Below, piece after piece: positions 4,214 through 52,999 of a stretch of 64,000 nucleotides of DNA; position 1 is the stretch's first letter, and each line of letters starts with the position of its first letter. The translations under genes were made by a program, and so were the position numbers. The stretch lies in IMG/VR virus record IMGVR_UViG_3300024229_000651. One strand, 5' to 3'. Origin of the DNA: a virus. Taxonomy: Duplodnaviria > Caudoviricetes. Below the pieces are notes generated by a model. It was given only the letters and a program-made list of their open reading frames with translations. It was not told the DNA's origin and did no database searches.

Positions 4214-4243
4214 AAAAAGTAGCGACATATGTCGCTACTTTTT
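4214..4243. terminator. Perfect inverted repeat, intrinsic terminator
   Basis: AAAAAGTAGCGAC-ATAT-GTCGCTACTTTTT downstream of the 4271 gene. Confidence 0.85.
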
Positions 4244-4270
4244 AAATAGGATTATCTACAAAGTGTTTGT

Positions 4271-5104: not shown

Positions 5105-5152
5105 TGATAATCTCCTAAAAATTACTACTGTTATTTATCAGAAAACGCTATT

Positions 5153-6061
5153 CTACTGCGTAACTTCGATTTCTTTTACTGTCGGATATAACGTGGTCAA
5201 TTCCAGTACATCATCCATTGTGTATGCTTTATTTATGTGTCCTAGACGCAAACGTCCTAATCTATATTCAGGTGCTTTGTAGTCTATATAATCGCCTAAA
5301 CCTTGCGACTCGCACCACGTATGGTACTCTTCGATTTTTTCTTTGTCGCTTTTTTCTGTGGGAAAATTTGCAGGATCGTGCTGAAAGTTCGTTGCAACAC
5401 CTGCTGTCATAACCAGTTGTTGCCTGTGTTCCCCACGCTTTATTAGGTCAGCATCGTCTGTCCAAAAACATGCACCGACATCTTTACCAATAGTATCGTA
5501 ATCCATTTCTAAACATCCCCACTGAGAATGGGGCATCCTCAGCATATGGTCGTCATCAGTTAAGTTTAGGTCTGGCAACATCCATTCTGCATAACCGTAT
5601 TGTTTTGCTACAGCAAAGACTTGATTAATTTCTACTGGTGCTGCTTCCATAAAGTGTACAAGTATATTAACACGCTCTAACAAATCTTGTGTTTCATTAA
5701 TACCCGTACCCCATTTTTCAGAATACAACTGAAAAATTTCATGTAGCCTGTTCAATTTATTAACTTGTAAATGAGGTGCAACTGTTAAATCTAACAATAA
5801 ATTATCAGGTATTTGGCAGTACTCATCAAGCTCGTTTATCTGAGATATAACATTATTCATTTCCGTAGCGTAACCCAGCGTTGTGTCTGCGCCTTGACTT
5901 CGTCTAATGTCTATCCGACTAGCTATATCTGATGTAGGCTTAGTTTGAGTTAAAAGTATACAAAGTTTTTCTATTACATCAGCTTGGTATAGCTCGTATG
6001 AGATATGCTCTGTTTTAGTTTTTAAATCGTTTTCAAATACCAAATTAATCGTTGACATCAA
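5153..6061 (-). CDS. Hypothetical phage protein
   Basis: 302-aa ORF coupled to the peroxiredoxin gene; no function recognised. Confidence 0.65.
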   Translation of the reverse strand: MMSTINLVFENDLKTKTEHISYELYQADVIEKLCILLTQTKPTSDIASRIDIRRSQGADTTLGYATEMNNVISQINELDEYCQIPDNLLLDLTVAPHLQVNKLNRLHEIFQLYSEKWGTGINETQDLLERVNILVHFMEAAPVEINQVFAVAKQYGYAEWMLPDLNLTDDDHMLRMPHSQWGCLEMDYDTIGKDVGACFWTDDADLIKRGEHRQQLVMTAGVATNFQHDPANFPTEKSDKEKIEEYHTWCESQGLGDYIDYKAPEYRLGRLRLGHINKAYTMDDVLELTTLYPTVKEIEVTQ

Positions 6062-6686
6062 TATCCTCTTTGGTGTCCTCTACAGCAACATCGTCTTGTT
6101 CCATTTCCATCTCTGCCGCTTTTGCTTCATCTTCGATACGCTGTAATGCTTCTCTACGAGGTTCGCGGATATCTTCTAAATAATTCATCACTGTTTTAGC
6201 ATCACTAATAGTAAAAGGGTCTTCTGCAAGATTATCCATTTTGTTGGGCTCTGACCAAATGGCCTCTACACGACCTCTATCAACAACCATAGCATATCGA
6301 TGGCTCCTGATGCCAAACCCAAGGTTATCTTTTTTAACAGACATTCCCATAGCTCTTGTAAAGTCTCCCGATCCGTCTGGCAATGCCTTAACGTTAGTTA
6401 TTTCTTGTGCACTAAACCATGCGTTCATTACAAAACTATCATTAACACTTAAACAAAAAACCTCATCGATATCCTGCTCCATAATTCTACTGTAATTAAT
6501 TTCAAAGCCAGGCAAGTGTGTACTTGAGCACGTTGGCGTAAAAGCGCCTGGTAGTGCAAACACCACTACTCTTTTATCATGAAAAATTTCAAATGATGTT
6601 CTGTTTATCCATTCGAAGTCAGCAGTTTTATCACTGCGTTCTCTCATAACAAATGTCATGTCTGGTACATATAATTCTACTGCCAT
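6045..6686 (-). CDS. Peroxiredoxin (Prx5/PrxV type) with acidic tail
   Basis: FALPGAFTPTCSSTHLPG, CLSVNDSFVMNAW and RSHRYAMVV. Confidence 0.92.
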   Translation of the reverse strand: MAVELYVPDMTFVMRERSDKTADFEWINRTSFEIFHDKRVVVFALPGAFTPTCSSTHLPGFEINYSRIMEQDIDEVFCLSVNDSFVMNAWFSAQEITNVKALPDGSGDFTRAMGMSVKKDNLGFGIRSHRYAMVVDRGRVEAIWSEPNKMDNLAEDPFTISDAKTVMNYLEDIREPRREALQRIEDEAKAAEMEMEQDDVAVEDTKEDIDVND

Positions 6687-6700
6687 AATTTTATCTCCTG

Positions 6701-8281
6701 TTACTGTGTGTTATAATTATCGTCGATTCTAGAAAAGCTCTTAAAAATCTCGTAGATATCACCTTTTATTGTTGCGTTAGGATCGTCTATCAAATCATCT
6801 ATTGTGTGTACTAACCAAGCATTAAGATTTATATAATAGTTATTACCCCAGTTAGTTAGCATTGATGCCATTCGTTCTTGATTTTCAAGAATTTTTGGTT
6901 TTGCGGCGAGTCTACACTGATGTAATTGCTCGGGTGTCTTTTGCTGAAGTTTGTGTACTTCTCTAGCAATTGCTTCTGCACGGTGTTGGCTGCTAACAAT
7001 ATCATCGTAGGACTCGTCGATGCCGAACTCCTCAGCTAGAGTATGGAACCCCAAACGTTTAAACCGTTGCACAAATCCTTGCCAAGAGAAAATAATAGTT
7101 GCTAAACCTAAGTAAAGAGGTTTTAAACTTTTTTCTGTAATGAATAAGTTAGCTTTTTCTGCAGGCTCAGAGTATAGCGCATTAGATTCGCATGTTAACC
7201 AAACATAAGTAGTGTCTTGGAACGGTATGTACTGCGACTCTACACCACCAATGAAATCATGATCGTCTTCTAGAGATTTGCCTGCTCTCATTTTTTCTCT
7301 AAAATCTGCAGCTAGTTCGTCGGAAATTTTGCCGCCCTCTCTGTCAACCCAAGCCTGACAGCCTTCACGAATCATCTCGTTTTCTAAATATTGCCCAGTC
7401 ATCCAAAAATTAGGATTGTGGTTGCTTGGCGCTGTCCCTACATTAAAGTATTGTAATGGTGGATAAAGACTAGTAACGGTTTGATATTGCCAGTAGTCGT
7501 TTTTATAAAGTTCCCAAGCAAGTAATGTTCTAGCTACATCTGGTCTTCTATTCAAAAAGGTTATTGTGCCTGGACGAATTGTATCCCAATCGTTAGTATC
7601 TATAAATTTAAGATATCCGGAACTGCCGGGATCACCCTCATGGAAGTTCATAAACGAATCTGTAGCCATATGGCCAATCATATCCCATGCTGGTATATAA
7701 TGTATAGGCTCTTCACCTAACTCTTCTGTAATACTATTACAGTAATTTTGACCATTTAAATTATGTCCTGTGATGAAGAACTTATTCCTAGGCACTTCGT
7801 ATATCTGTAATATATGACAAATTTGTATTATAATATCTCTAAGTTCTGGGGACTCGTCAAAAAAGTCGAGGACTAGAGCCGGCTGGCCCATTTCGTCCCA
7901 ATGGTCATAAAATTCCAGAAGAAAATCGACTTGTACTTCTCGGAGTTTCCAATTTGTTGTGTATGCCCCTCTGTCGTCAAAATCACCGAATCCACTTGTT
8001 GGTAGAAAAAATCCCACTTTAGCTACATGATTTCTGAAGCCAGTCTGTCCAATTCTTTTACTGAAAGGCATGTTAGCAAAAAACCCGATTAGCGGATGTC
8101 CTTCAATATCCCCCATGTGTGGACCTTTAGTGTCTAAATGGTATGTGTCATAGCCACCGTATATATTACGATGAGACATTACTTGGATAAAATCCAATAG
8201 GGTAGTTTGAACACTGTCATCGTTAATTGTAAAAGAATTTATAACTGGTAGTGCCTTAATGGATATAAGTCGTTTTGCCAT
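6701..8281 (-). CDS. Hypothetical protein with GT10/GT-B-like C-terminal domain
   Basis: WLTCES...FITEKSLKPLYLG resembles the FENS...YVTEK motif of GT10; paralog of 28134..29366. Confidence 0.5.
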   Translation of the reverse strand: MAKRLISIKALPVINSFTINDDSVQTTLLDFIQVMSHRNIYGGYDTYHLDTKGPHMGDIEGHPLIGFFANMPFSKRIGQTGFRNHVAKVGFFLPTSGFGDFDDRGAYTTNWKLREVQVDFLLEFYDHWDEMGQPALVLDFFDESPELRDIIIQICHILQIYEVPRNKFFITGHNLNGQNYCNSITEELGEEPIHYIPAWDMIGHMATDSFMNFHEGDPGSSGYLKFIDTNDWDTIRPGTITFLNRRPDVARTLLAWELYKNDYWQYQTVTSLYPPLQYFNVGTAPSNHNPNFWMTGQYLENEMIREGCQAWVDREGGKISDELAADFREKMRAGKSLEDDHDFIGGVESQYIPFQDTTYVWLTCESNALYSEPAEKANLFITEKSLKPLYLGLATIIFSWQGFVQRFKRLGFHTLAEEFGIDESYDDIVSSQHRAEAIAREVHKLQQKTPEQLHQCRLAAKPKILENQERMASMLTNWGNNYYINLNAWLVHTIDDLIDDPNATIKGDIYEIFKSFSRIDDNYNTQ

Positions 8282-8283
8282 TG

Positions 8284-8616
8284 TTATAATATTCCCAATT
8301 GATATTTTGCTTCGTCTGTTATTTTATCTGGGTTCCAAGGAGGATCAAATGTTAAAATAACCTTGACGGTATTTATGTTTGACACAGCTCGTGTTGCAAA
8401 CTCTACTTCCATAGGAAGTATCTCAGCAGCCGGACAATTAGGCGATGTTAATGTCATCGTTACACGGGCGTTTGTATCAGCATCTACAGTTACATCATAG
8501 ATTAATCCTAGGTCATAAACATTTAAATTAATTTCAGGATCAAATACTTTTTTTAAATTTGCTACAATTAAATCTTCTAATTGACTTAAGAGTTGAGTTT
8601 CTTGAATATCTTCCAT
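8284..8616 (-). CDS. sufT: SufT / DUF59 Fe-S assembly protein
   Basis: VFDPEINLNVYDLGLIY and MTLTSPNCP; likely start MEDIQ at 8616 (track gives 8640). Confidence 0.9.
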   Translation of the reverse strand: MEDIQETQLLSQLEDLIVANLKKVFDPEINLNVYDLGLIYDVTVDADTNARVTMTLTSPNCPAAEILPMEVEFATRAVSNINTVKVILTFDPPWNPDKITDEAKYQLGIL

Positions 8617-9806
8617 AGACCTTCTACTAGTTGTACGCAATCATTCTCATCATTATAAGGTGCTAGGCTTACTCTGAGCACACCTGATTCCGTTGGGTTA
8701 TATCTGCAACTTGCAGGGTATGCACACAAGTGTCCGGATCGAACACACACATCTTCCATACCAAGTAATGTTGCCACATCACCTGCATCATGATCCTTCA
8801 AAACAAAACTATACACACTTCTGAACGTCTTAGGTCCTATCAGTTTCATATCATCGATAGCAAACAGTCCCTTTTCTTTCAGCATGTTGTAGAATTCTTT
8901 TTCACACTCTGCTATAGTTTTGTAAGTAGTGTCTTGTATCCATTGAGCAGCAGCACCTATACTGTGTACTCCTGCAATATTTGGTGTTCCAGCTTCAATA
9001 CGGCTAGGGTCACTGTTCAAGTCGTATTTGTCGAAATTTAGCCACTGTACTGTGCCGCCGCCAACACTCAATTCGACATCGTGGAATCCTCCACGTTTAA
9101 AAATTACACCTATTCCAGTACTAGCAAACATCTTGTGTCCGCTGAATACTAACCAATCCATATTTGACGACTGCACATCAATAGGCTTGTGGCCGATTGT
9201 TTGACATGCATCTAGCATTACTTCACAGCCTTGCTCTTTTGCAATTTGTACCATGTCTCGCCATTTTAACTCAAGGCCCGTTAGGTTACTTTGTGTTGTT
9301 ATTGATACAAACGTTCCTGGCTTAGCATATTCCAATGCTGTGTAAAAGTCTTCCAAACTGACGTCACCGTGATCGCTTGCTTGAACAACGATTAGATCTC
9401 CTTGATCTTGTCCTCTGCCGGCTTTAATCCATGGCATAATATTACTATGGTGTTCAAGCTCAGTAATTATTACTTTCCTGTCCCTATCGATACTTTCTGC
9501 TATTCGATTAAGACCATCTGTAGTACCAGATGTAAATGCAATCTCATAAGGTTTTGCATTAATTAGTTTTGCAACTTGTTCTCTAGCTTGCTCATATAAA
9601 TTGGATGCTGTCATCGCTGAAGCATATTCGCCTCTGTGAATATTGCTTCTATAATTATAATGATAATCACTGACTGCTTTGATCGCAGTGTCCACAGTTT
9701 GTGATGTGGCTGCATTATCCAAGTAATGGATTTTTGCATAATTCAAACTGGGAAACTGGGATCTAATATTGGCAATTTGTTTTGCCTTTTCGTAAACTCT
9801 TAACAT
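8586..9806 (-). CDS. sufS: Cysteine desulfurase, group II
   Basis: YLDNAATSQ, EHHSN, FSGHK (PLP Lys), EAGTPN, RSGHLCA (catalytic Cys). Confidence 0.93.
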   Translation of the reverse strand: MLRVYEKAKQIANIRSQFPSLNYAKIHYLDNAATSQTVDTAIKAVSDYHYNYRSNIHRGEYASAMTASNLYEQAREQVAKLINAKPYEIAFTSGTTDGLNRIAESIDRDRKVIITELEHHSNIMPWIKAGRGQDQGDLIVVQASDHGDVSLEDFYTALEYAKPGTFVSITTQSNLTGLELKWRDMVQIAKEQGCEVMLDACQTIGHKPIDVQSSNMDWLVFSGHKMFASTGIGVIFKRGGFHDVELSVGGGTVQWLNFDKYDLNSDPSRIEAGTPNIAGVHSIGAAAQWIQDTTYKTIAECEKEFYNMLKEKGLFAIDDMKLIGPKTFRSVYSFVLKDHDAGDVATLLGMEDVCVRSGHLCAYPASCRYNPTESGVLRVSLAPYNDENDCVQLVEGLWKIFKKLNS

Positions 9807-11056
9807 AAAAAACTTTCCACTAAAATTGTTTTGGCTTGATCAGGTGAAACTCCCTTTGTCTGCAAATAATATAAAGCAGAATCATCAACATTACTTATGG
9901 TACAACCATGTGCACATTCTATTTCTTTGGTCTTAATATCAAGCTGAGGCCGTGAACGCATTATGCTGCTACTATCTAACATAATATTTTTGTTAAACAT
10001 GTTGCCGCTAAAACCCGTGCCATGTTGATCAACTAGGAATGTCCCTACAAAACTTGTTGTGCTGTGTTCATGTCCTACTGTTCTGATATCAACATCACAC
10101 GAATTATTTGTAGACTTAGTTTCAAAAAATACTTCCGAATGATACTCGTTCCCTTTCCCAATATTATTTCTACCATTTATGTTAACTGTGACATCTTTTG
10201 TGGCATCCACATAAAAATTTTCCACACTGTAATGACTACCTGTATTTTTAACATCAATGTTTAATGTACTACCAGGGTAGCAAATGAACACACTGTCAAA
10301 TATACCCCAAGTGCCGCCTTTTGATAGTGTTTCTCTTTGTAGATTAAGAGTAGCATTTTCTCGTAAAATATAGACCACATAGTTAAGTTGGCCGGCTTGC
10401 AAATCTACTAACTCATTTAAGTTGACTGCGCTGTTTGCCTTGATGTCAATAACATTTGTATTGCTTTCCAATATAGGATCGTCAACAGAATTACAGTACT
10501 CTATTACTACAGGCGAATCGTTTGATTTATTAATTGTAATAACATTAGGAAATACCGTTGATGCTATAGTTAGATCACCAAAACCTTTTGTATTTTCTAG
10601 ATACGTTGTGTATTTGTCGTACTTGTAGTTTCTATTGATGTCGTCGAATAATCTGACTTTGGAAGTTTTCTCATGTAGGTCGTTAGTAGTGAAGGCATTA
10701 CTGTCACAAAAAATAATTGTTTCTTTAGGGCCTGTAGCCAAACGATCAAATCTATTTAACTGCATATTATAATAATCAACAGTATTACCTACGTCTGATG
10801 TATCGAGTATGTCAGTCTTATATATTTTGTTGAGATTAAAATCGCCGAACACTTTGTGCTTTTTGTTGGGGAGACCAGCTCCGGCAAGTCCAGTCAACGC
10901 TGTTGTATAATAATCTGCTTTGGAGTCCCCATAGGAATTAAAATAAAGTTCCGCCCACTTATCATCCGTTAAGTAATTGTATAAGTCCTCAAGCTGATAA
11001 AACTTTTTTGTTGGGGCTTCTTGAAATGTTGTGTGGGCGCATAATCTCTTAAACAC
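9800..11056 (-). CDS. sufD: SufD Fe-S assembly protein
   Basis: SRPQLDI...ECAHGCTISNVDDSALYYLQTKG; beta-helix character; N-terminus divergent. Confidence 0.85.
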   Translation of the reverse strand: MFKRLCAHTTFQEAPTKKFYQLEDLYNYLTDDKWAELYFNSYGDSKADYYTTALTGLAGAGLPNKKHKVFGDFNLNKIYKTDILDTSDVGNTVDYYNMQLNRFDRLATGPKETIIFCDSNAFTTNDLHEKTSKVRLFDDINRNYKYDKYTTYLENTKGFGDLTIASTVFPNVITINKSNDSPVVIEYCNSVDDPILESNTNVIDIKANSAVNLNELVDLQAGQLNYVVYILRENATLNLQRETLSKGGTWGIFDSVFICYPGSTLNIDVKNTGSHYSVENFYVDATKDVTVNINGRNNIGKGNEYHSEVFFETKSTNNSCDVDIRTVGHEHSTTSFVGTFLVDQHGTGFSGNMFNKNIMLDSSSIMRSRPQLDIKTKEIECAHGCTISNVDDSALYYLQTKGVSPDQAKTILVESFLC

Positions 11057-11744
11057 TTTTAAATCCTGATTGGAAAATTTTATCTGCTATTTCAATTCCG
11101 CCCGTTATCGTACCAGTGGGTTGTAGGACAACAACTGTGTCTGGGTTTATACCAGCAATTAGTTTTTCATAGTGTGTTACAACTATGAGAGTTCTATCAG
11201 ATGATTTCCATTTATTCAGCGATTCAATCAAACTGTCGATGCCGTCTACGTCAAGTCCACTATCCGGTTCGTCAAGCATTGCAACACTAACATCAAGCAT
11301 GTTCATTTGAATAAGTTCGTTCTTCTTTTTCTCACCGCCGCTTGCATCTGTGTTAATGCTCTTTCGGTCCCACAAATCTGGTAGTGCGAGTTCTGCGCTC
11401 AACTCTTTAAATTCTTTCAGCTTTGTAACAATATCAGCGCCGCTTAAATCAAGTGCTTGTTTTAGCATCTGGAAGTTACTCAAGCCAGGTATAGGAGTAG
11501 GCGTTTGAAATCCTAAAAATAATCCAGCCTGTGCACGTTCATGGACTTCTTTATCGGATATAATTTCGTTATTGAGTATAACTTCACCTGATACTTCTAT
11601 ATCAGGTCGGCCCATAATTGCGTGGAGTAGTGTGCTCTTTCCAACACCATTACTTCCCATAATTACATAAGTTTTGCCCACTTCAAAGGAAAGCGATATA
11701 TCCTTTAAAACATTGTTAACATTTAACTTTTTAATTTCTAACAT
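11049..11744 (-). CDS. sufC: SufC ABC-type ATPase
   Basis: GSNGVGKST Walker A, LFLGFQTP, SGGEKKKNE, LDEPDSGLD. Confidence 0.93.
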   Translation of the reverse strand: MLEIKKLNVNNVLKDISLSFEVGKTYVIMGSNGVGKSTLLHAIMGRPDIEVSGEVILNNEIISDKEVHERAQAGLFLGFQTPTPIPGLSNFQMLKQALDLSGADIVTKLKEFKELSAELALPDLWDRKSINTDASGGEKKKNELIQMNMLDVSVAMLDEPDSGLDVDGIDSLIESLNKWKSSDRTLIVVTHYEKLIAGINPDTVVVLQPTGTITGGIEIADKIFQSGFKSV

Positions 11745-11750
11745 GTGTGT

Positions 11751-11779
11751 ATTATACCTGATGTGTTGTGTTTTGTCAA
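11751..11779 (-). promoter_or_regulatory. Consensus sigma70 promoter for sufCDS-T
   Basis: TTGACA-N17-TATAAT; ATG of sufC is 7 nt downstream and has no SD. Confidence 0.85.
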
Positions 11780-11786
11780 TAATTAT

Positions 11787-12044
11787 TTAGACTTCTTTGC
11801 GTACAGATTTGCTATACTTGTACATACTTGTGCCGTGTTCTAGTTTAAATATATAACTTTTTTGCCAGCAGTCTAATTGTATAGGTGTCATTCGACCTTT
11901 ACATTCTTTAATGTTTTCCTGCTTCCATTCGGCTGTTGTATCAGGATCCTTCCACTTTAGTTTTTCTAATACTGTTCTTCCACAACCCTGACATTGATTG
12001 GTATATTTGTCGTGCATGCACAAACTAATACAAGGACTGATCAC
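11787..12044 (-). CDS. DUF1289-family Cys-rich protein
   Basis: SPCISLC...CQGCGRT..E..W pattern. Confidence 0.8.
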
Positions 12045-13492
12045 CCCACAGCACCTTCCATTGTAACGCTCAATAATTGGTTTGCTTCAGCAGCAAACTC
12101 TAGTGGCAAGTGTTGGAATACATCCTTACAAAATCCGCTGACAACAAGGTTAAGTGCATCGTCTTCAGCAAACCCTCTACTCTGTAAGTAATACATTTGT
12201 TCTTCGCTGATCTTGCCGGCGCTTGCTTCATGCTCGACTTTTGCAGTACTGTTTGTAGAGCTGACATATGGTATTGTGAGTGCTCTACTGTTCTGCATCA
12301 TCAAGCTGTCACATTTAGTGAAGTTACTAGCATTGTCAGCCTTACCGTTAATTTTTACCATGCCTCTGTAAGTACTAGTACTATCACCAAAACTTATACC
12401 TTTAGCGATAATTGTGCTTTTAGTATCTTTACCAACATGAATCATTTTACTGCCAGTGTCTGCTTGTTGTTTGCCTTTAGTAACAGCAACACTAAAAAAC
12501 TCGCCCACACTGTTATCGCCTTTAAGAATACAACTTGGATACTTCCATGTTACTGCTGAGCCAGTCTCAACTTGAGTCCATGATACTTTACTGCTCTCAC
12601 CTTCGCATAAGGCTCGTTTGGTAACAAAGTTATATACACCACCTACACCGTTCTCATCGCCTGGATACCAATTTTGTACTGTACTGTATTTGATCTCTGC
12701 TCTGTCTAGTGTTACAAGCTCCACAACTGCCGCATGCAGGGTGTTCTCATCGTATGCAGGCGCTGTACAACCTTCTAAGTAACTTACATAACTATCATCG
12801 TCTGCGATAATAAGTGTGCGTTCAAACTGCCCTGTATTACGAGCATTTATTCTAAAGTATGTGTTAAGTTCCATTGGGCATCTAACACCCTTTGGGATAT
12901 AGCAAAATGTGCCGTCGGAAAACACTGCACTATTCAAGCATGAAAAATAGTTATCGCTGTATGAGACAACACTGCCTAAATATTTTTGTACAAGTTCGGG
13001 ATGTTCCTTTACTGCTTCACTAATACTACAAAAAATAATTCCGTCTTTTTCTAGCTCTGCTTTAAAAGTAGTGGCAACACTGACAGAATCAAAAACAGCA
13101 TCAATTGCCACAGTTGGGATAATCCTATCGTCATTCTCACTCTCAATTCCAAGCAGTGCATCACGTTCATGCAGTGGGACACCCAACTTGTCGAATGTGT
13201 CCAATATTTCCTGAGGTATTTCATCTTTGTTTCTTATTTTAGGCGCCGAATAGAAACTCATTGCCTGATAGTCTGGTCTGTCATAATTTAACTCTGACCA
13301 GTCCGGTTCTGATAACTGTTGCCATCTCTTGAAGGCTTTGAGTCTAAAGTTTAAGAGCCATTCTGGTTCATCCTTCATTTGGCTCAGTCTACGAACGATG
13401 TTTTCATCTAAACCCGGTTCAAAGTCTTCGCTTTCAATTTCAGTACGAAAGCCTTCCTTGTATTGTGTAGTTTCTATTGTGTCAGCTTTCAT
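12041..13492 (-). CDS. sufB: SufB Fe-S scaffold
   Basis: [62 protein letters not shown]; uninterrupted 483 aa. Confidence 0.96.
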
Positions 13493-13788
13493 TCGATTCG
13501 TTCAAAGTTAACTTTAAGTGGGTGTCCGGCCATTCTGGCAAGTGTAGTGGCTTCGGTCGTTTTCTGTTCAGCTATCTCATGATTGTAGGTTCCAGCGACA
13601 GCCGAGTCCTCACTATGTATCCGCATAGTTACATCTTGTGCCGTTTCCAATGAGGTGTTGAACACATCGATAAGCATCTGTATTACAAACGCCATTGGTG
13701 TAAAATCATCATTGTACACAATCACATTGAACCTGGGCGGGTAAGATAACCTTGTTTCTGTGTGTGTTTTTACTTGTGCGTTAGCCAT
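13489..13788 (-). CDS. clpS: ClpS N-end-rule adaptor
   Basis: [20 protein letters not shown]...MRIH. Confidence 0.92.
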
Positions 13789-13836
13789 TTAATACTGTCC
13801 AGTTAGTAGGGGAGGTATTCCTCCCCTGGGTTTTAT

Positions 13837-14274
13837 TTAAGATATTTTAATTTTTTGGGGTTTCATTGCATCAGGAATGTGCCTGACTAATGTTACTCTC
13901 AAAATGCCATCTTCTAATTTAGCACTATCAACTTCAACATACTCTGCAAGTTTGAATGTTCTCACAAAGTTGCGTTCTGCAATACCTTTGTGTAGGAACT
14001 CTCTGCCGTCTTGGTCTAACACCTGTGAGTTACCTGTTATTTTTAATGTACCATCTTCCAACTCGATGTCGATATCACTACGCTTAAATCCTGCTAGGGC
14101 AAGAGTAATCTCATAAACATCGTTATCGTCTTTGGAAATGTTGTACGGAGGGTATCCAGTCACATTTGCGAATGCAGGTTCGTTGAAGAATTCATTCATA
14201 ACTCTATCGAAGCCAACGCTGGCTCTGAATAGAGGGTTTAGGGTTTCGGTTGTCAATCTGAATTGCTTTGTCAT
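13837..14274 (-). CDS. Small heat shock protein Hsp20/IbpA
   Basis: GYPPYNI, LALAGF, LHKGIAERNF, AKLEDGIL. Confidence 0.93.
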   Translation of the reverse strand: MTKQFRLTTETLNPLFRASVGFDRVMNEFFNEPAFANVTGYPPYNISKDDNDVYEITLALAGFKRSDIDIELEDGTLKITGNSQVLDQDGREFLHKGIAERNFVRTFKLAEYVEVDSAKLEDGILRVTLVRHIPDAMKPQKIKIS

Positions 14275-14350
14275 AATAATCTCCTTTATAAAGCAAGTTA
14301 TTTTTGTAACAGTATCAAATACCCATATCTGGCGTATTGTTTGTTACACA
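14275..14350 (-). promoter_or_regulatory. ROSE-like RNA thermometer 5' UTR of hsp20
   Basis: SD hairpin CUU-G-CUU-UAUA-AAG-GAG contains UUGCU; upstream hairpin UGUAACA/UGUUACA; ATAAATA box at 14353-14359. Confidence 0.65.
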
Positions 14351-14368
14351 TCTATTTATCCATTATAA

Positions 14369-14785
14369 TTAACTAGAAAATAAATTGTTGAAACTTTCTT
14401 CTAATGATCTAACCGGGAGCCTATCATAAAACTTTAATTTAAACAACATAACATCTTCCTCAGTCCAAGCTCGCCCATCAGGCTTTGCTACAACATTAAG
14501 GTACATAGTTGAATAGTCTGGTGAGTTCGAATCGTCCTCCCAACTGTTCCCCCACGACATCATAATTTTGTAATCCATCTTTGCGTCATTGAAGAATTTG
14601 ACAAAAGGCTGTATCACATTGTGTACAGCCATTTCATTTATCCATTCGTAATCAGCATCATCAGAAACAGGTGCACTAACAAGCAGTATAGAATCTACTG
14701 TTTCATTGTGCACATTTTTCTGTAAGAAGTTATCAATTTCCTTTGGCACCGAGATAATCCTTTTCTTTACTAGTCTTGATTGCAT
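14369..14785 (-). CDS. Hypothetical protein
   Basis: 138-aa ORF in operon. Confidence 0.6.
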   Translation of the reverse strand: MQSRLVKKRIISVPKEIDNFLQKNVHNETVDSILLVSAPVSDDADYEWINEMAVHNVIQPFVKFFNDAKMDYKIMMSWGNSWEDDSNSPDYSTMYLNVVAKPDGRAWTEEDVMLFKLKFYDRLPVRSLEESFNNLFSS

Positions 14786-15185
14786 GACATCTACAGCACA
14801 AAGTTTGAATGTTATCCTTGGTGTTTGATCCGCCTCGGCTTTTCAATTCAATATGATCTCCGTGCATCACACTACGCATACATCGAAGTTTGTGAAATTC
14901 ATCTTCAATATCGTCAAACTGAGGATCTTTGCGTGGATCGTAGCCGCATGCCTCGCATACCCACCCTCGATAGAATGTATGAGGGCGTTCAGGTTTACCC
15001 ATCCCGCCGTATTCAGTGCACTCAAGTTGATGATGTCTGCAAAGTATTTTGCTACCCGGTCCTTCGTAGTTGCTGAGAGGACTATCGCAGTCCTCTAGCA
15101 TACAGGTTGAATTAACACGAGTTTCTTTGAGATACTGGGTCGTGCTTTTAACTTTATCGTTATCGGGATCTCTAAGCATTTCCAA
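14733..15185 (-). CDS. HNH endonuclease
   Basis: CEAC...GDHIELKSRGGSNTKDNIQTLCCRCH. Confidence 0.85.
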   Translation of the reverse strand: MEMLRDPDNDKVKSTTQYLKETRVNSTCMLEDCDSPLSNYEGPGSKILCRHHQLECTEYGGMGKPERPHTFYRGWVCEACGYDPRKDPQFDDIEDEFHKLRCMRSVMHGDHIELKSRGGSNTKDNIQTLCCRCHAIKTSKEKDYLGAKGN

Positions 15186-15194
15186 CTCCTATCC

Positions 15195-16340
15195 TTACCA
15201 AAGATCTGCTGAGTTAACAGCAAAGCCATTATTAGGTATATAAGAAGGAGTTTTAAGTTTAGTACTCTTCTTAAGTTGTGCAATAAGGAACGGAATGCCT
15301 GTGCGCATCTCTGTACTAAATCCTTTCAAACCAAATTCTTCATAGCTTTCAGGGTTAGCTTTAGCATACCAATTTGTGTAGGCCATTTTTACTTTGTTCC
15401 AGAACATGCCGCTTTCACCGAAGTTGGCTTCGAAATATTCTTTAGTAAATTCAGCAAACTCTCGAAGATACTTGCTATCAACATTAATACCCTGTTCATA
15501 GCACAAGTTAAAGTACTCGTATAATTGTCTAGCTTCCTTAGCTTGCACCGGGCGGCTTGTATTCAAGTAACTCCAGTATTCTGCAAACATTCTAGTAACT
15601 TCTGGACGTTTTGCTTTACTTAGATTTTTACTCATAATTGTATCAGCAAGCAATGTAAATGCACCAGGTTTATCGTCATCGCCGAATTTGTTGCCGGTAG
15701 CAAATAACTTTACTTTTGCAAAATGCTGTTGTTTAAGATCTGCATCAAGCCAATCTTGGTCAGTAGCACCGTCTGTGCGTACACCGTGTACCATTTGCTT
15801 GAAGATGTCAATAAAATCTAGCGGCGCTTTGGCCTCACCATTAAGTTTAATAAAGTTTCGTCTAATTTCTAATTTATGTTTAGTGGGGTAAACATTTACT
15901 GGAATAGTAAAGTTTTTAGGCAGAACACCAAAAACCATTGTGCACAAAATATATAGAACGATTGCAGTATGTTGGCCATCCCATGCAATATATTTTCCAG
16001 GCTGTTCTGGGTCCTCATATACCTGAATAGGCATTACCATGGTGTTTTTAAAACCAGATATGATTTCAGTTATATGCTTAAAGTTTACTTGTCGCTGCAT
16101 TGTTGTGTCGATCAATATTTGATCTAGGGTTGCATTAACTCCTTTACACAATTCTATGTCAGTGATGGTTTTGAATTGAGGCTGGCGCCGTTTGAATTCA
16201 TCTACAGTGCCGGTGAGCATATTTCTGAAAGCAGAATGCAACGACAGTGATTGTTCTAAACGGTCTTGTAGGGAAACAAAATTACTTTCAGTATTACTAA
16301 ACTGTTCATTAATTTTGTCAGCATGGTCTAAAGTAGTCAT
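15195..16340 (-). CDS. ParB/DGQHR-like domain protein
   Basis: TMQRQVN...YIAWDGQHT in the N-terminal half. Confidence 0.55.
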   Translation of the reverse strand: MTTLDHADKINEQFSNTESNFVSLQDRLEQSLSLHSAFRNMLTGTVDEFKRRQPQFKTITDIELCKGVNATLDQILIDTTMQRQVNFKHITEIISGFKNTMVMPIQVYEDPEQPGKYIAWDGQHTAIVLYILCTMVFGVLPKNFTIPVNVYPTKHKLEIRRNFIKLNGEAKAPLDFIDIFKQMVHGVRTDGATDQDWLDADLKQQHFAKVKLFATGNKFGDDDKPGAFTLLADTIMSKNLSKAKRPEVTRMFAEYWSYLNTSRPVQAKEARQLYEYFNLCYEQGINVDSKYLREFAEFTKEYFEANFGESGMFWNKVKMAYTNWYAKANPESYEEFGLKGFSTEMRTGIPFLIAQLKKSTKLKTPSYIPNNGFAVNSADLW

Positions 16341-16423
16341 ATTATATCTCCTAGCCTATTTCTGAGGCGGATTGTTAAAGTTAAGTATTGTGAAAGTGAC
16401 TAAACTTTGCACAACACGAGCAT

Positions 16424-16452
16424 ATAGTACTATCACTATATTCTGTTGTCAA
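16424..16452 (-). promoter_or_regulatory. Sigma70-type promoter TTGACA-17-TACTAT
   Basis: aaaaacggTTGACA-N17-TACTAT about 85 nt upstream of the 16340 start. Confidence 0.7.
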
Positions 16453-16631
16453 CCGTTTTTGGGATCTTGTGCTTGCTCCTTTCTCAGTTGCTCTTCTTCT
16501 TTGCTAGGAAGAGTCTGTTGCTGTTGGGGTTGACGCTTTCCAAAGATGCGGTCGTAATTATCCGAATACGCTTTTTGGTTAGAACCTTTTCTGAGGCGAT
16601 CTCCCTTGCCGCCGTGCCACTTGTCTGTCAT
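16449..16631 (-). CDS. Small hypothetical protein typical of T4-like phages
   Basis: HGGKGDR.R...AYSDNYDRIF; ATGA overlap. Confidence 0.65.
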   Translation of the reverse strand: MTDKWHGGKGDRLRKGSNQKAYSDNYDRIFGKRQPQQQQTLPSKEEEQLRKEQAQDPKNG

Positions 16632-17334: not shown

Positions 17335-17336
17335 AA

Positions 17337-17588: not shown

Positions 17589-17614
17589 TACTCTCTTTGT
17601 TAACAATATATACT

Positions 17615-24131: not shown

Positions 24132-24530
24132 TTATTTTTTCTTTATGCGTTGACGAAGACGATCCTGTTGTTCTCTAACCGGCTTCATTTTCTTTTTGGT
24201 TTTAAGATGTTTTAATCCACTAGTAGCATACTGCACATGTTCACCAGATATTTCCTTCTCTGTGACTGATCTCTGCCACCGCTTTGCAGCTTGTGCCTTT
24301 GATCTGCGCTTAGTTTCGCTTGGCTTTTCGTAATACATATTTTTTGATATAGTCTTCTGAAAGTCATCACGCTCTAATCTCTTTTTTAGAATTCGTAGTG
24401 CTTTACCTACATCGCCGCCTCGGACTTCGACCCCAGGTTTAAAATAATCAAAAAAGTTTTCTTTTGGTCTTGTGTCGTTACCCTTATTATTCCAAGACTT
24501 GGAATAATTGTTATTCTTATGTTTGTTCAA
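24132..24530 (-). CDS. rpsU: Ribosomal protein bS21 with N- and C-terminal extensions
   Basis: VEVRGGDVGKALRILKK...YYEKPSETKRR. Confidence 0.8.
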   Translation of the reverse strand: MNKHKNNNYSKSWNNKGNDTRPKENFFDYFKPGVEVRGGDVGKALRILKKRLERDDFQKTISKNMYYEKPSETKRRSKAQAAKRWQRSVTEKEISGEHVQYATSGLKHLKTKKKMKPVREQQDRLRQRIKKK

Positions 24531-25791
24531 TTTGTCCTCTCAATAAAACAGTGTAATGTTTGTCTATTTCTTCTACTCCGTTACTATAAACGAGAGTAGG
24601 CGCCGGCATATCACTTATCTTTGGGTATTGATTAAAAATTACTTTTGTGACACCAGCGTCTTGTAATTCGGGTGCTCTATACATGATACTGTGTAAACTT
24701 GCTTCCACAATGCTGCGTATACCTCGAGCGCCTATACCCTTTGAATGAGCAATTTCTGATACTGTTTTATAATAGCTATCAGAAAACTCTAATTCTATAT
24801 TATCCATTAAAAGCAAGTTCTTGGATTCTTTTATAACACTAACATCCGACGATGTCATTATTTCAATCATGTCATCCTCTGCTAATTCACTTAGAGAAAC
24901 AATAGTAGACAACCTTCCAACAAATTCAGGTATCAACCCATATGTTATCAAGTCTTTATGTGAAATAGACTGCCTCCAACTAGCTTTGTCTGTATTACTT
25001 ATATCTGCGCCGAAACCAATACTACGTTTATTGAACCTAGCATTAACTGTTTTTTCCAAACCAACAAAAGCGCCACTGCAGATAAAAAGTACATTGCTAG
25101 TATCGAATTCGACAAAGCCATCAGATTTTTTACTGCTAGGCATAGGCACTTTGATGACAGTGCCTTCTATAAGTCTCAACAACGCCTGTTGTACGCCCTC
25201 ACCACTGATATCTTTTGTAGACGAGTTTGATTCGCTACTTCTAGATTTTTTATCTATCTCGTCTATAAATATTATACCTTGTTGTGCACGTTTTACATCC
25301 CAGTCGCAAATGTTAAGTAATCTCTCTACAACACTTTCAACATCCTCTCCAACATAACCCGCTTCTGTAAGAGTAGTTGCATCAGCAATTGCAAACGGCA
25401 CAGACAGTACTGTTGCCAGTGTTTGCGCTAATAGTGTTTTGCCGCTACCTGTGGGGCCGATCATTAACACATTGCTCTTGCCTATTTTGGCATCACCAGC
25501 TTCCAAACTAGATATACGCTTGTAATGATTATACGAAGCTATACTTAGAATTTTCTTTGCTGTTGTTTGGCTAATTATTGTTCGGTCTAATCTATCACAT
25601 ATTTCAGTAGGCGATAACAGTGAACTTACTTCTTCGAGCAAATCTTCGTTGGTTGCATCGCTTAAGATGTTTGCACTGACACTTATACATTCATCGCAGA
25701 TAAATGCTACAGGACCTGCTATTAATTTGTTAACTTGGTCTCGTCTTTTGCCGCAAAAACTACACGAATAGTTCTGTTCTTGTGTACTCAT
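24517..25791 (-). CDS. clpX: ClpX ATPase
   Basis: CSFCGK zinc domain, GPTGSGKT, EAGYVGEDVE, FIDEIDK, DISGEGVQQALL, IGF loop. Confidence 0.95.
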   Translation of the reverse strand: MSTQEQNYSCSFCGKRRDQVNKLIAGPVAFICDECISVSANILSDATNEDLLEEVSSLLSPTEICDRLDRTIISQTTAKKILSIASYNHYKRISSLEAGDAKIGKSNVLMIGPTGSGKTLLAQTLATVLSVPFAIADATTLTEAGYVGEDVESVVERLLNICDWDVKRAQQGIIFIDEIDKKSRSSESNSSTKDISGEGVQQALLRLIEGTVIKVPMPSSKKSDGFVEFDTSNVLFICSGAFVGLEKTVNARFNKRSIGFGADISNTDKASWRQSISHKDLITYGLIPEFVGRLSTIVSLSELAEDDMIEIMTSSDVSVIKESKNLLLMDNIELEFSDSYYKTVSEIAHSKGIGARGIRSIVEASLHSIMYRAPELQDAGVTKVIFNQYPKISDMPAPTLVYSNGVEEIDKHYTVLLRGQIEQT

Positions 25792-51970: not shown

Positions 51971-52999
51971 CTAGCGAGTTTTACTGATAGATATGTCGCT
52001 TAAATTATTACAAAATTCAAACGGGCACACAGTTTCACTTATTGGCAAGTCCCAGTTTTCGATCTGTGTAATATTACCAAAGCTCTTTGCACCGCACCAA
52101 CTACTAATAACCTCACCATTCATATCTATGTTAATGCTATCATAGCCTAATTCACATTTCATGCCTTTAAACTTGTTTAAGCCTTCATTAATAATCTGGT
52201 GGCTCTGTACGTAATGAGTAGATCCGTCGTCATACAAAAATTCTGTACTCCAAAATCTAGGGTGGTCTTGACTGTCGTCATGATCCTGTTGATCTTGTTG
52301 TACCGGTTCCGGAGGTCTAGGTAGTAATCCCGGTCGCTGTAAAATAGCCATTTCATCATCAGTGTAGGCGTAATAAGGATCTTGGTTATTATCGTTGTCG
52401 CCTAAGTATTTGTTGTACAGTGTTTTTACAGTAATATTAACATCATAAATACTTTGCTGTTCGTTGTCTATAAATAACTCACGCAATCTATCTGCAACTG
52501 TGCCTAACTCTTGTACTTGTCCACCTACTCCGGCAATATTTAAATCTATAGTACAATGACCTATTAGTGTTTTAACGACAGCAAATAAATGATCTTCGTC
52601 CATAGTGAGCGGGTGATATGTTATCACAACACCCGATAAATATTCTCTAGCTTCTTCCCACCAGTCTACAGTTCTGCTACCATTAGTGTATATTGTACAA
52701 CTTGAATTATAAGAATGTATTTTTTCAATAATCTTTTCAAATCCAGGTATAGTTGTAACTTCGCCACCAATTAATTCCCAGTGCATGAAGCGACTTTGAT
52801 TACGTTTGTAATGCGTTGATATTTTGTCTACAATGTCTAAATATTGTTGTGTAGACATCCAAGATCTAGAACCATTGTGCAATTCAGTTGGACAATAATC
52901 ACAACTAAAATTACACACATTACCCATACTCCATTGTATCTTAACTGCACGATCTGGGTCAGTAGTATGAGGTCCTTTGACAGATATTAGATTGGCCAT
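51971..52999 (-). CDS. Radical SAM protein with Cys-rich C-terminus
   Basis: CNFSCDYC, GGEVT, YTNGSR; C-terminal C...C...CxxxxC. Confidence 0.88.
   Translation of the reverse strand: MANLISVKGPHTTDPDRAVKIQWSMGNVCNFSCDYCPTELHNGSRSWMSTQQYLDIVDKISTHYKRNQSRFMHWELIGGEVTTIPGFEKIIEKIHSYNSSCTIYTNGSRTVDWWEEAREYLSGVVITYHPLTMDEDHLFAVVKTLIGHCTIDLNIAGVGGQVQELGTVADRLRELFIDNEQQSIYDVNITVKTLYNKYLGDNDNNQDPYYAYTDDEMAILQRPGLLPRPPEPVQQDQQDHDDSQDHPRFWSTEFLYDDGSTHYVQSHQIINEGLNKFKGMKCELGYDSINIDMNGEVISSWCGAKSFGNITQIENWDLPISETVCPFEFCNNLSDISISKTR

What the first reader, a model, noticed from the sequence alone, without database searches (positions are those of the whole stretch)
8284..13492. Near-complete SUF Fe-S biogenesis operon in a phage
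Seen: sufB, DUF1289, sufC, sufD, sufS and sufT are contiguous and co-oriented with overlapping stops and starts. Key residues look intact: SufS PLP Lys and RSGHLCA Cys, SufC Walker A/B, the SufB CDS Cys and EHE, and the SufD CAH His. The flanks are phage genes and phage-type promoters. Established: SufBC2D plus SufS is the core scaffold and sulfur donor of the oxidative-stress and iron-starvation Fe-S pathway; as far as I recall, phages usually carry isolated carriers or scaffolds. Inference: the phage builds its own Fe-S clusters independently of host ISC/SUF regulation. sufA, sufE and sufU are not in this window, so sulfur transfer may use host SufE or a direct SufS-SufB route. The gene order, with a separate promoter for sufC, differs from the E. 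coli sufABCDSE order.
Basis: partly seen in the sequence, partly recalled or inferred. Interest (0 to 1): 0.85.

Follow-up and report, generated by a model that had tools for sequence, protein, structure and literature searches.

The report
Jumbo phage iron-sulfur assembly operon
A 340-kb marine jumbo phage, like dozens of uncultured relatives, carries an intact and apparently transcribed bacterial-type SUF machine for building iron-sulfur clusters, most likely to feed its unusually many iron-sulfur enzymes.

Summary
On the minus strand, 8284-13492 encodes sufB, a DUF1289 protein, sufC, sufD, sufS and sufT, with overlapping junctions and every catalytic residue I checked intact.

The context is viral. 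The window lies in a 339,794-bp IMG/VR record. It has polB at 59 kb, terminase at 228 kb and a gp23-type capsid gene at 270 kb. Its nearest cultured relatives by capsid are PA5oct- and Rak2-like jumbo phages.

New points:
- The genome has its own SufE, 20.6 kb from the operon and next to clpP. No SufA or SufU was found.
- Hsp20-ClpS-SufBCDS-SufT-Prx synteny recurs in about 20 IMG/VR contigs.
- 35 of 40 viral SufB sequences form a virus-only group. The best bacterial identity is 64%.
- A perfect sigma-70 promoter sits exactly 6 nt before the sufC ATG. The hexamers and this distance are conserved in about 13 relatives, which predicts a leaderless mRNA.
- SufD lacks about 30 C-terminal residues across the clade.
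- The genome has 11 radical SAM ORFs. Two other SUF-bearing jumbo phages have 22 and 23. Three SUF-less cultured relatives have 0-1.
- The operon is present in six seawater metatranscriptomes.

The B-C-D-S-T order is the ordinary bacterial one. Nine literature searches found no described complete phage SUF. This scan also flagged a complete SUF operon in another phage genome.

The parts
13837..14274 (-). hsp20 (IbpA/IbpB-like small heat-shock protein), first gene of the conserved block
   Evidence: Pfam HSP20 65.6 bits. Upstream of clpS-sufB in 26 related viral loci and in 0 of 80 bacterial suf loci.
13807..13828 (.). GC-rich hairpin between hsp20 and clpS
   Evidence: 9-bp stem. The T-run is on the plus strand only, so for minus-strand transcription it is a hairpin without a U-tract. 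Its role is unknown.
13489..13788 (-). clpS (Clp N-degron adaptor), overlapping the sufB start by 4 nt
   Evidence: Pfam ClpS 88.4 bits. ClpS-SufB adjacency is conserved in about 24 viral loci.
12041..13492 (-). sufB, Fe-S scaffold subunit
   Evidence: NF008773 803.6 bits, cut-off 717. E = 2.6e-187 to E. coli SufB 5awf_A, with C254, C405 and E434 equivalents present. These residues are invariant in 40 viral rows.
11787..12044 (-). DUF1289 small four-Cys protein in the variable sufB-sufC slot
   Evidence: PF06945 41.2 bits. GTG start overlaps the sufB stop. Absent from all 40 related viral loci, which hold other small genes or nothing here.
11751..11779 (-). Perfect sigma-70 promoter (TTGACA-17-TATAAT) ending 6 nt before the sufC ATG
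   Evidence: 12/12 match. Hexamers and the 6-nt distance are conserved in about 13 relatives while the spacer varies. It is one of 12 such sites in the genome, all on the minus strand, against 0-1 expected.
11049..11744 (-). sufC, ABC-type ATPase
   Evidence: TIGR01978 206.3 bits, cut-off 212.8. Aligns to E. coli SufC with all ATPase motifs. Motifs are invariant in 33 viral rows.
9800..11056 (-). sufD, scaffold partner with a shortened C-terminal domain
   Evidence: SUFBD_core 105.7 bits. Cys381 and His383 align with E. coli C358 and H360. The tail after the His is 35 aa, against 57-81 aa in 77 bacterial SufD proteins.
8586..9806 (-). sufS, type II (SufS/CsdA-like) PLP cysteine desulfurase
   Evidence: Aminotran_5 304 bits; TIGR01979 317.6 bits, below the 475 cut-off. 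Best solved matches are SufS/CsdA enzymes. Lys225 and Cys361 are conserved.
8284..8640 (-). sufT (DUF59 Fe-S assembly/maturation factor)
   Evidence: FeS_assembly_P 56.1 bits; TIGR02945 117.7 bits, below the 143.4 cut-off. Follows sufS in 46 of 80 bacterial loci and in most viral loci.
6701..8281 (-). 526-aa ORF of a virus-only family, 2 nt after sufT; probably co-transcribed; function unknown
   Evidence: No Pfam, NCBIfam or PHROG match. Atlas neighbours are all viral, with only a weak GT10-like lead. Present in only 6-8 of the closest loci, so it is not a core SUF part.
6045..6686 (-). Peroxiredoxin (Redoxin/AhpC-TSA)
   Evidence: Redoxin 86.2 bits. Downstream of sufT in 17 viral loci and in no bacterial locus.
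24517..25791 (-). clpX (context: the phage encodes its own Clp system)
   Evidence: zf-C4_ClpX and AAA_2 matches. ClpP and a Clp_N-bearing 736-aa ORF lie elsewhere in the genome.
51971..52999 (-). Radical SAM enzyme, one of 11 candidate [4Fe-4S] clients in the genome
   Evidence: Radical_SAM 38.1 bits. Genome-wide list.

Best explanation
This is a genuine, intact SUF iron-sulfur cluster biogenesis system carried by an uncultured marine jumbo myophage of about 340 kb. It was inherited vertically within a clade of such phages.

Inferred mechanism, by homology with E. coli SUF:
1. SufS (PLP on Lys225) takes sulfur from cysteine as a persulfide on Cys361.
2. The sulfur passes to Cys40 of the phage's own SufE, which is encoded 20.6 kb away beside clpP.
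3. It then passes to SufB Cys242.
4. The cluster is built at the SufB Cys394/Glu422 - SufD His383 interface of a SufBC2D-type complex driven by the SufC ATPase.
5. SufT assists client maturation. Final delivery must use host carriers, because no A-type carrier or SufU is encoded.

Inferred purpose: a phage-controlled Fe-S supply for the phage's large set of [4Fe-4S] enzymes (11 radical SAM ORFs). The SUF type tolerates oxidants and iron limitation (established knowledge from E. coli), and the host's own suf/isc expression may no longer be available during infection (not examined here).

Inferred expression: host sigma-70 RNA polymerase starts at a conserved consensus promoter placed so that transcription begins at the A of the sufC ATG, giving a leaderless sufCDS-sufT message. 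hsp20-clpS-sufB are read from upstream signals.

The block sits in a phage-specific stress island: Hsp20, ClpS and a peroxiredoxin.
For: Gene identities and catalytic residues. The residues are invariant across 17-40 viral homologues.

Viral context:
- The record is 339,794 bp, CheckV 91% complete, with no 16S rRNA.
- polB lies at 59-60 kb, TerL at 228 kb and the gp23 capsid gene at 270 kb.
- The capsid gene is nearest to PA5oct- and Rak2-like jumbo phages.
- Base composition is uniform across the window.
- Logan contigs of single runs span 2000-20000 (DNA run) or 2000-18370 (RNA run) without differences.

Lineage-wide conservation:
- 40 IMG/VR loci carry related SufB genes, and about 20 have the Hsp20-ClpS-SufBCDS-SufT-Prx order.
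- The window's SufB lies in virus-only clades of 13 rows (SH-aLRT 97) and 21 rows (100), and in a 35-row viral group (94).
- The best of 80 bacterial SufB sequences is 64% identical.

SufE:
- It passes the Pfam cut-off (33.7 bits, cut-off 27) and its Cys aligns with the CsdE active Cys.
- SufE is present in 4 of 5 large related contigs, and the SufE-ClpP adjacency is conserved.
- The SufS+SufE complex prediction gave weak support: score 0.38 against a best control of 0.00. The pass mark was reached by 51 of 78 solved complexes and 2 of 108 mismatched pairs. Passes at 0.60 or under came from only 5 of those 78 solved complexes and from all 4 passing mismatches.

Demand:
- 11 radical SAM ORFs in this genome.
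- 22 and 23 in two other SUF-bearing jumbo phages.
- 0, 1 and 1 in three SUF-less cultured relatives.

Promoter.

Expression: the operon is held in full by 6 metatranscriptome runs. RNA contigs break at intergenic gaps and differ in depth from 17x to 352x, while the DNA run gives one even contig.
Against: No biochemical or genetic test exists.

SufC, SufD, SufS and SufT fall below NCBIfam equivalog cut-offs. They are only 29-43% identical to bacterial counterparts, whereas SufB is 60-64% identical.

SufD lacks about 30 C-terminal residues. From my memory of the E. coli SufBC2D structure, that part belongs to the domain that holds SufC, so complex architecture may differ.

No A-type carrier is encoded.

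The radical SAM correlation rests on six genomes without phylogenetic control.

The RNA evidence comes from assembled contigs, which cannot show transcript ends or exclude DNA carry-over. The leaderless start is inferred from geometry alone.

The SufS-SufE prediction is only a weak pass.
Confidence: 0.75

Rival explanations
1. A host-maintenance auxiliary gene set. The phage SUF mainly keeps host Fe-S enzymes (respiration, central metabolism, nucleotide supply) running under the oxidative and iron stress of surface seawater during a long infection. Serving phage enzymes would be secondary.
For: The block travels with general stress genes (Hsp20, ClpS, peroxiredoxin) in about 20 loci. Published readings of single phage Fe-S genes favour support of host stress responses (PMC8940887). 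The source is seawater.
Against: SUF-bearing jumbo phages hold 11-23 radical SAM ORFs, against 0-1 in three SUF-less relatives. This points to phage-encoded clients. The two readings are not exclusive.
Confidence: 0.2
2. A cellular artefact: a bacterial fragment, a chimeric assembly, or a bacterial island misclassified as viral.
For: The suf genes are of cellular origin. Most 'phage' SufB and SufS hits in GenBank are host DNA in phage preparations or prophage edges. In Microcystis phage MaAM05, sufBCDS-iscU sits at the record end beside panB, panC and pxpA.
Against: polB, TerL and a gp23 capsid gene lie on both sides of the operon on the same record, and there is no 16S rRNA. Logan's assemblies of single runs (one DNA run that may be the source, three RNA runs) reproduce the local contiguity. 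Synteny with virus-only ORFs recurs in about 20 contigs from many samples. The SufB clade is virus-only and at most 64% identical to any of 80 bacterial sequences. A related complete 328-kb genome with terminal repeats carries sufB, sufC, sufD and sufE plus gp23.
Confidence: 0.02
3. SufS and SufE serve mainly as a sulfur relay for thio-modification of nucleic acids or cofactors (tRNA or DNA thiolation, thio-cofactors), not for cluster assembly.
For: Cysteine desulfurases feed many thiolation pathways (established knowledge). SufE is encoded apart from the scaffold genes. The genome is rich in modification enzymes (and earlier notes).
Against: sufS is translationally coupled to sufD within a scaffold operon. 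The cluster-ligand residues of SufB and SufD and the ATPase motifs of SufC are invariant across the viral clade. That is not expected if only sulfur mobilisation mattered.
Confidence: 0.03

Closest known systems
E. coli-type SUF system (SufBC2D scaffold + SufS/SufE; solved as PDB 5awf/5awg and SufS entries such as 1jf9 and 6mr2)
   Same: It has the same six protein families and the same B-C-D-S order. The sulfur-acceptor Cys, the cluster-site Cys/Glu of SufB and His of SufD, the SufC ATPase motifs, the SufS Lys/Cys and the SufE Cys are all present.
   Different: It is carried by a virus. It has no sufA. sufE lies at a separate locus beside clpP. SufB lacks the E. coli N-terminal CxxCxxxC stretch. 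SufD has a C-terminal tail about 30 residues shorter. SufC, SufD and SufS are strongly diverged (29-43% identity). ClpS and Hsp20 lie upstream and a peroxiredoxin downstream. There is an internal consensus promoter with leaderless geometry.
sufBCDS(-sufT) operons of marine Gamma- and Alphaproteobacteria (80 loci from genome contigs)
   Same: The gene order is identical in 72 of 80 loci. SufB identity is 60-64%.
   Different: None of the 80 has ClpS, Hsp20 or this peroxiredoxin next to suf. In the tree the bacterial sequences lie outside the viral group that holds the window's SufB (35 of 40 viral rows).
Previously described phage Fe-S auxiliary genes: single A-type carriers, IscU, SufE, NifU, PaaD/DUF59 (Nishimura et al. 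2017, PMC5332604; ETNP OMZ viromes 2021, PMC8940887)
   Same: They come from marine phages, are often T4-like, and co-occur with many phage radical SAM genes. PMC5332604 reports a 183-kb genome with 12 radical SAM genes and one carrier.
   Different: Those are isolated carriers or accessory proteins that depend on the host scaffold and desulfurase. Here the scaffold, the ATPase, the desulfurase and its sulfur shuttle are all phage-encoded.
Microcystis phage MaAM05 (GenBank MW495066) annotated sufB-sufC-sufD-sufS-iscU
   Same: It is a jumbo-phage record with an annotated SUF core. Its SufB is 58% identical to the window's.
   Different: It is SufU/IscU-type rather than SufE-type. The genes sit at the extreme end of the record beside panB, panC and pxpA. 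In the tree its SufB falls among bacterial sequences on a long branch. The suf genes are not mentioned in the main text of the two Microcystis jumbo phage (PhiMa05) papers I could read; I did not confirm that PhiMa05 is the same phage as MaAM05.
Other viral SUF operons in IMG/VR, e.g. L036 (IMGVR_UViG_3300034375_009923)
   Same: It is phage-borne sufB-sufC-sufD-sufS with sufT, and it belongs to the same 35-row viral SufB group.
   Different: That clade has a 194-aa minimal SufD. It keeps sufE, a glutaredoxin, a ferredoxin and an A-type carrier inside the operon. It lacks the ClpS-SufB coupling.

Membership tests
SUF Fe-S biogenesis system | SufB scaffold subunit with the sulfur-acceptor Cys and cluster-site Cys/Glu | tested here: met
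   NF008773 803.6 bits, above the 717 cut-off. Cys242, Cys394 and Glu422 align with E. coli C254, C405 and E434. They are invariant in 40 viral rows.
SUF Fe-S biogenesis system | SufC ABC ATPase with Walker A/B, Q-loop, signature and H-loop | tested here: met
   All motifs align with E. coli SufC and are invariant in 33 viral rows. The TIGR01978 score of 206.3 is just under the 212.8 cut-off.
SUF Fe-S biogenesis system | SufD paralogue with the conserved His at the SufB-SufD interface and a full C-terminal helical domain | tested here: inconclusive
   SUFBD_core is met and His383 and Cys381 are present. TIGR01981 scores 109.8 against a 222 cut-off. The C-terminal tail is 35 aa, against 57-81 aa in 77 bacterial proteins.
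SUF Fe-S biogenesis system | Type II cysteine desulfurase SufS with PLP Lys and persulfide Cys | tested here: met
   The best solved matches are SufS/CsdA enzymes at E about 1e-59. GHKM Lys225 and Cys361 are conserved. It falls below the TIGR01979 cut-off (317.6 against 475.1), so it is a divergent member.
SUF Fe-S biogenesis system | Dedicated sulfur shuttle (SufE or SufU) that pairs with SufS | tested here: inconclusive
   A SufE-family ORF is present in the genome (Pfam 33.7 bits, cut-off 27) with its Cys aligned to the CsdE active Cys. No SufU/IscU was found. Pairing with phage SufS has only weak predicted support: 0.38 against a best control of 0.00. The pass mark was reached by 51 of 78 solved complexes and 2 of 108 mismatched pairs, and passes at 0.60 or under are more often wrong than right unless likely beforehand.
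SUF Fe-S biogenesis system | A-type carrier (SufA) for cluster delivery | tested here: not met
   No PF01521 match in the 340-kb record at E <= 0.1. A carrier is not universal in bacterial suf operons. Another viral clade does carry one.
SUF Fe-S biogenesis system | Assembles and transfers Fe-S clusters in vivo or in vitro | not testable with these tools
   This needs complementation of an E. coli isc suf mutant and in vitro reconstitution.
Phage auxiliary metabolic gene (virus-encoded, not contamination) | Lies inside a viral genome between hallmark genes, with virus-specific phylogeny and synteny | tested here: met
   polB, TerL and gp23 lie on the same record. Synteny recurs in about 20 viral contigs. 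The SufB clade is virus-only. Logan's assemblies of single runs reproduce the local contiguity.
Leaderless mRNA | Transcription start coincides with the A of the start codon | not testable with these tools
   Only geometry is available: a perfect -10 hexamer ends 6 nt before the ATG, and this is conserved in about 13 loci. Only contigs could be laid, and these cannot show RNA 5' ends.

The most novel reading that the evidence does not exclude
SUF and the phage's own Clp proteolysis system form one functional unit. clpS is translationally coupled to sufB, and sufE is paired with clpP, in every close relative examined. The genome also encodes ClpX and a ClpA-like protein. The phage could degrade host proteins, including host Fe-S proteins, through ClpS/ClpAP and ClpXP. 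It would then channel the released cysteine and iron straight into its own SUF machine, re-allocating the host's scarce iron quota to phage radical SAM enzymes. A conserved leaderless sufCDS message would keep that line translated under stress.
Probability: 0.12. Interest if true: 0.8.

Novelty: new variant of a known kind. Interest (0 to 1): 0.62.

Why it matters
Phages were known to carry single Fe-S helpers: carriers, IscU, SufE and DUF59 proteins. Here the scaffold, ATPase, desulfurase and sulfur shuttle are all phage-encoded and conserved across a virus-only clade. This is a near-autonomous cofactor-biogenesis pathway in a virus.

It links two features of marine jumbo phages that have been noted separately: their large radical SAM repertoires and their Fe-S auxiliary genes. 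That gives a testable supply-and-demand hypothesis. It also bears on how viruses re-allocate iron in iron-limited oceans.

The phage versions are natural minimal or divergent variants that could inform SUF mechanism. Examples are the SufD that lacks its C-terminal end, the 194-aa SufD in a sister clade, the SufB without N-terminal cysteines, and the leaderless sufC.

The conserved pairing with Clp components is unexplained and may point to a new regulatory or recycling link.

Tried and rejected
Literature. Nine full-text searches found no description of a complete phage SUF. They found only single-gene reports (PMC5332604, PMC8940887). The library misses most subscription journals, so absence is not proof.

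Flanking ORFs. PHROGs gave nothing for the large ORFs next to the operon (6701-8281, 15195-16340, 2921-4138) and only non-structural families such as ribonucleotide reductase further off.

The 526-aa ORF after sufT. I examined it as a possible new SUF part and rejected that. It belongs to a virus-only family with a weak glycosyltransferase-like lead. It is present in only 6-8 of the closest loci.

DUF1289. I considered it as a core part. It is unique to this genome among the 40 related loci, so it is a passenger in a variable slot. It is plausibly Fe-S related, and from memory the family is annotated as a predicted Fe-S protein.

GenBank 'phage' hits. Most SufB and SufS hits (Staphylococcus, Listeria, Enterococcus and gut contigs) look like host DNA or prophage borders and were not counted as precedents.

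MaAM05. I treat it as a doubtful precedent because of its cellular-looking neighbours.

Rfam. No regulatory RNA in the window.

SufS-SufE complex. The prediction is a weak pass only: 0.38 against a best control of 0.00. I use it as a hint, not as evidence of binding.

Donor lineage. It could not be resolved. The viral group branches outside all 80 sampled bacterial SufB sequences.

Full report
WHAT IS THERE

On the minus strand, 8284-13492 holds six tightly packed ORFs. Pfam and NCBIfam name them SufB, a DUF1289 protein, SufC, SufD, SufS and SufT/DUF59.
- SufB is a clear equivalog (NF008773, 803.6 bits, cut-off 717).
- The others match their Pfam families well but fall below NCBIfam equivalog cut-offs: SufC 206.3 against 212.8, SufD 109.8 against 222, SufS 317.6 against 475.1, SufT 117.7 against 143.4.
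- They are therefore divergent members of their families.

- SufB Cys242, Cys394 and Glu420-His421-Glu422 match E. coli C254, C405 and E432-H433-E434. Arg214, Asn216, Gln273, Trp275 and Lys292 are also invariant across the viral SufB rows; from memory these correspond to the E. coli sulfur-tunnel residues.
- SufD has Cys381 and His383.
- SufC has Walker A, Q-loop, signature, Walker B and H-loop.
- SufS has Lys225 in GHKM and Cys361 in RSGHLCA.
- Across 17-40 viral homologues all these positions are invariant.
- SufB lacks the N-terminal CxxCxxxC stretch of E. coli SufB.

IS IT A PHAGE?

The window is bases 121,549-185,548 of a 339,794-bp IMG/VR record. CheckV puts it at 91% complete, and it has no 16S rRNA.
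- The same record carries a family-B DNA polymerase at 59-60 kb.
- It carries a large terminase at 228 kb.
- It carries a gp23-type major capsid gene at 270 kb.
- The operon, at about 130-135 kb, is therefore bracketed by hallmark genes.
- The capsid region is nearest to Pseudomonas phage PA5oct and to Rak2-like jumbo phages such as XbC2 and fHe-Yen9-04.
- Composition is even across the window.
- Logan's assembly of a seawater DNA run, which may be the record's own source, spans 2000-20000 in one contig without a difference. Its assembly of an RNA run spans 2000-18370 in one contig.
- An HNH endonuclease (14733-15185) and virus-only ORFs sit next to the block.

I consider contamination or chimerism essentially excluded.

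HOW WIDESPREAD, AND WHERE FROM?

A scan of IMG/VR with SufB returned 40 loci at 58-81% identity.
- About 20 of them share the order Hsp20-ClpS-SufB-SufC-SufD-SufS-SufT-(526-aa ORF)-Prx, with further shared neighbours.
- A scan of one genome per prokaryote species returned bacterial SufB at no more than 64% identity, mostly Gamma- and Alphaproteobacteria.
- In a maximum-likelihood tree of 121 sequences, the window lies in virus-only clades of 13 rows (SH-aLRT 97) and 21 rows (100).
- 35 of the 40 viral sequences form one group apart from all 80 bacterial ones (SH-aLRT 94). The other five fall among bacteria.
- The donor lineage is unresolved.
- SufC (at most 43% identity), SufD (about 29%) and SufS (about 32%) are far more diverged from bacterial proteins than SufB is.
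- Gene order B-C-D-S(-T) is the same as in 72 of the 80 bacterial loci, so it is not unusual.
- None of the 80 bacterial loci has ClpS, Hsp20 or this peroxiredoxin nearby.

A sister viral clade (L036) has sufB, an 88-aa ORF, sufC, a 194-aa sufD, sufS, rpiB, sufE, a glutaredoxin, sufT, a ferredoxin and an A-type carrier in one row. Phage SUF operons are therefore diverse.

THE MISSING SHUTTLE IS NOT MISSING

A Pfam SufE search of the whole record found a 118-aa ORF at 108.9-109.2 kb.
- It scores 33.7 bits against a cut-off of 27.
- Its motif GC-x3-VW aligns with the active-site Cys of CsdE.
- It is followed directly by clpP.
- 4 of 5 large related contigs also encode SufE. One of these is a complete 328-kb genome with terminal repeats and a gp23 gene.
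- The SufE-ClpP pairing is conserved in three of them.
- No IscU/SufU and no A-type carrier was found.

A complex prediction for SufS with SufE gave weak support only.
- The score was 0.38 against a best control of 0.00.
- The pass mark was reached by 51 of 78 solved complexes and 2 of 108 mismatched pairs.
- Passes at 0.60 or under came from only 5 of the 78 solved complexes and from all 4 passing mismatches.
- The predicted contacts include residue 42, two positions from Cys40.

PHAGE-SPECIFIC FEATURES

(i) Promoter.
- A perfect TTGACA-17-TATAAT lies at 11779-11751 in the 42-nt gap before sufC. Its -10 hexamer ends exactly 6 nt before the ATG, and there is no Shine-Dalgarno sequence at the usual distance.
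- In about 13 related loci the two hexamers and the 6-nt distance are kept while the spacer and the 6 nt vary.
- The genome has 12 such sites, all on the minus strand, against 0-1 in simulated sequence. This looks like the phage's class of host-sigma-70 promoters.
- The geometry predicts a leaderless sufCDS-sufT message. This is an inference.

(ii) The sufB-sufC junction is a variable slot.
- It holds DUF1289 here.
- It holds a 110-aa ORF in L005, L006 and L013.
- It holds a CGFS-type monothiol glutaredoxin in L027-L032.
- It holds other small ORFs or nothing elsewhere.

(iii) SufD ends 35-37 residues after the conserved His in the whole clade. In 77 bacterial SufD proteins the tail is 57-81 residues.

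(iv) clpS overlaps the sufB start by 4 nt.

(v) The genome also encodes ClpX, ClpP and a Clp_N-bearing 736-aa ORF.

WHY WOULD A PHAGE CARRY IT?

- The record has 11 radical SAM ORFs, seven of them in tandem at 5-14 kb.
- Two other SUF-bearing jumbo phages have 22 and 23.
- Three cultured relatives of 287-368 kb have 0, 1 and 1. None of the three appeared among the SufB hits.
- Nishimura et al. had noted single carriers beside many radical SAM genes in T4-like marine genomes (PMC5332604).
- The simplest reading is supply for the phage's own demand. The sample is small and not phylogenetically controlled.

EXPRESSION

The 5.2-kb stretch is held in full by 14 seawater DNA runs and 6 metatranscriptome runs.
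- In RNA runs the contigs break at the 4139-4270 intergenic gap and near the hsp20 start.
- Their depths differ from 17x to 352x, whereas the DNA run gives one even contig.
- This fits transcription. Contigs cannot prove it, and they cannot show transcript ends.

COMPARISON AND NOVELTY

It works like, and by residues is, a SufE-type SUF system. It departs in four ways:
- viral carriage;
- split loci paired with Clp genes;
- a shortened SufD;
- the absence of a carrier.

Published phage Fe-S genes are single carriers or helpers (PMC5332604, PMC8940887). The only GenBank phage with an annotated SUF core, MaAM05, has it at the record end beside panB and panC. The main text of the two Microcystis jumbo phage (PhiMa05) papers I read does not mention suf genes; I did not confirm that PhiMa05 is the same phage as MaAM05.

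This scan's own notes list another phage genome with a complete SUF operon. That matches the sister clade I saw in L036.

I rate this a new variant of a known kind. Interest is moderate to high.

Noticed in passing
window 17585-18378: In two metatranscriptome runs this short stretch forms its own contig at 164x and 352x. Neighbouring contigs are at 20-40x. It covers a divergent pair of small ORFs: 17750-17998 (+, 82 aa) and 18055-18336 (-, 93 aa, which looks like a small DNA-binding protein). It may be a very highly expressed early regulator region.
   Followed up: partly
window 14263-14299: A 37-nt element just upstream of and into the hsp20 start recurs in short contigs with different flanks, in all four runs laid. 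It contains TATAAA followed by AGGAG and the ATG. It may be a repeated late-promoter/RBS cassette shared with another gene or a related phage.
   Followed up: partly
G000 whole record (positions listed): All 12 perfect TTGACA-17-TA[TC]AAT sites in the 340-kb genome lie on the minus strand, against 0-1 expected by simulation. This suggests a strand-biased set of host-sigma-70 (early) promoters.
   Followed up: partly
G000 95-109 kb and window 13489-13788, 24517-25791: The phage encodes a full Clp set: ClpP, ClpX, ClpS and a 736-aa ORF with a Clp_N domain (ClpA-like). sufE is paired with clpP and sufB with clpS.
   Followed up: partly
G000 5-14 kb; also G005 and G006: G000 has a tandem array of seven radical SAM ORFs of about 400-490 aa. 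Related SUF-bearing jumbo phages hold 22-23 radical SAM ORFs each. Earlier first-stage notes of this scan describe the same array as a tailoring island.
   Followed up: partly
L027-L032, about 11400-11690: In another viral SufB clade a CGFS-type monothiol glutaredoxin, an Fe-S trafficking protein, occupies the sufB-sufC slot that holds DUF1289 here.
   Followed up: no
L036:10001-16738: A sister phage clade has sufB, sufC, a 194-aa sufD, sufS, rpiB, sufE, a glutaredoxin, sufT, a DUF3470-type ferredoxin, an A-type carrier and mazG in one row. The SufD is about half the usual length.
   Followed up: partly
window 1574-4138: Upstream neighbours include a TauD-family dioxygenase, a dCMP/cytidine deaminase and a beta-ketoacyl synthase (76-77% identical in relatives). 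A stand-alone KAS in a phage is unusual.
   Followed up: no
L004 (MW495066 255000-273876): The last 19 kb of the Microcystis phage MaAM05 record reads like cellular DNA: pxpA, panB, panC, a 'gluconeogenesis factor' and sufBCDS-iscU. This casts doubt on that end of the record.
   Followed up: no
window 14733-15185: An HNH homing-type endonuclease ORF lies between the SUF/stress block and the next conserved gene.
   Followed up: no
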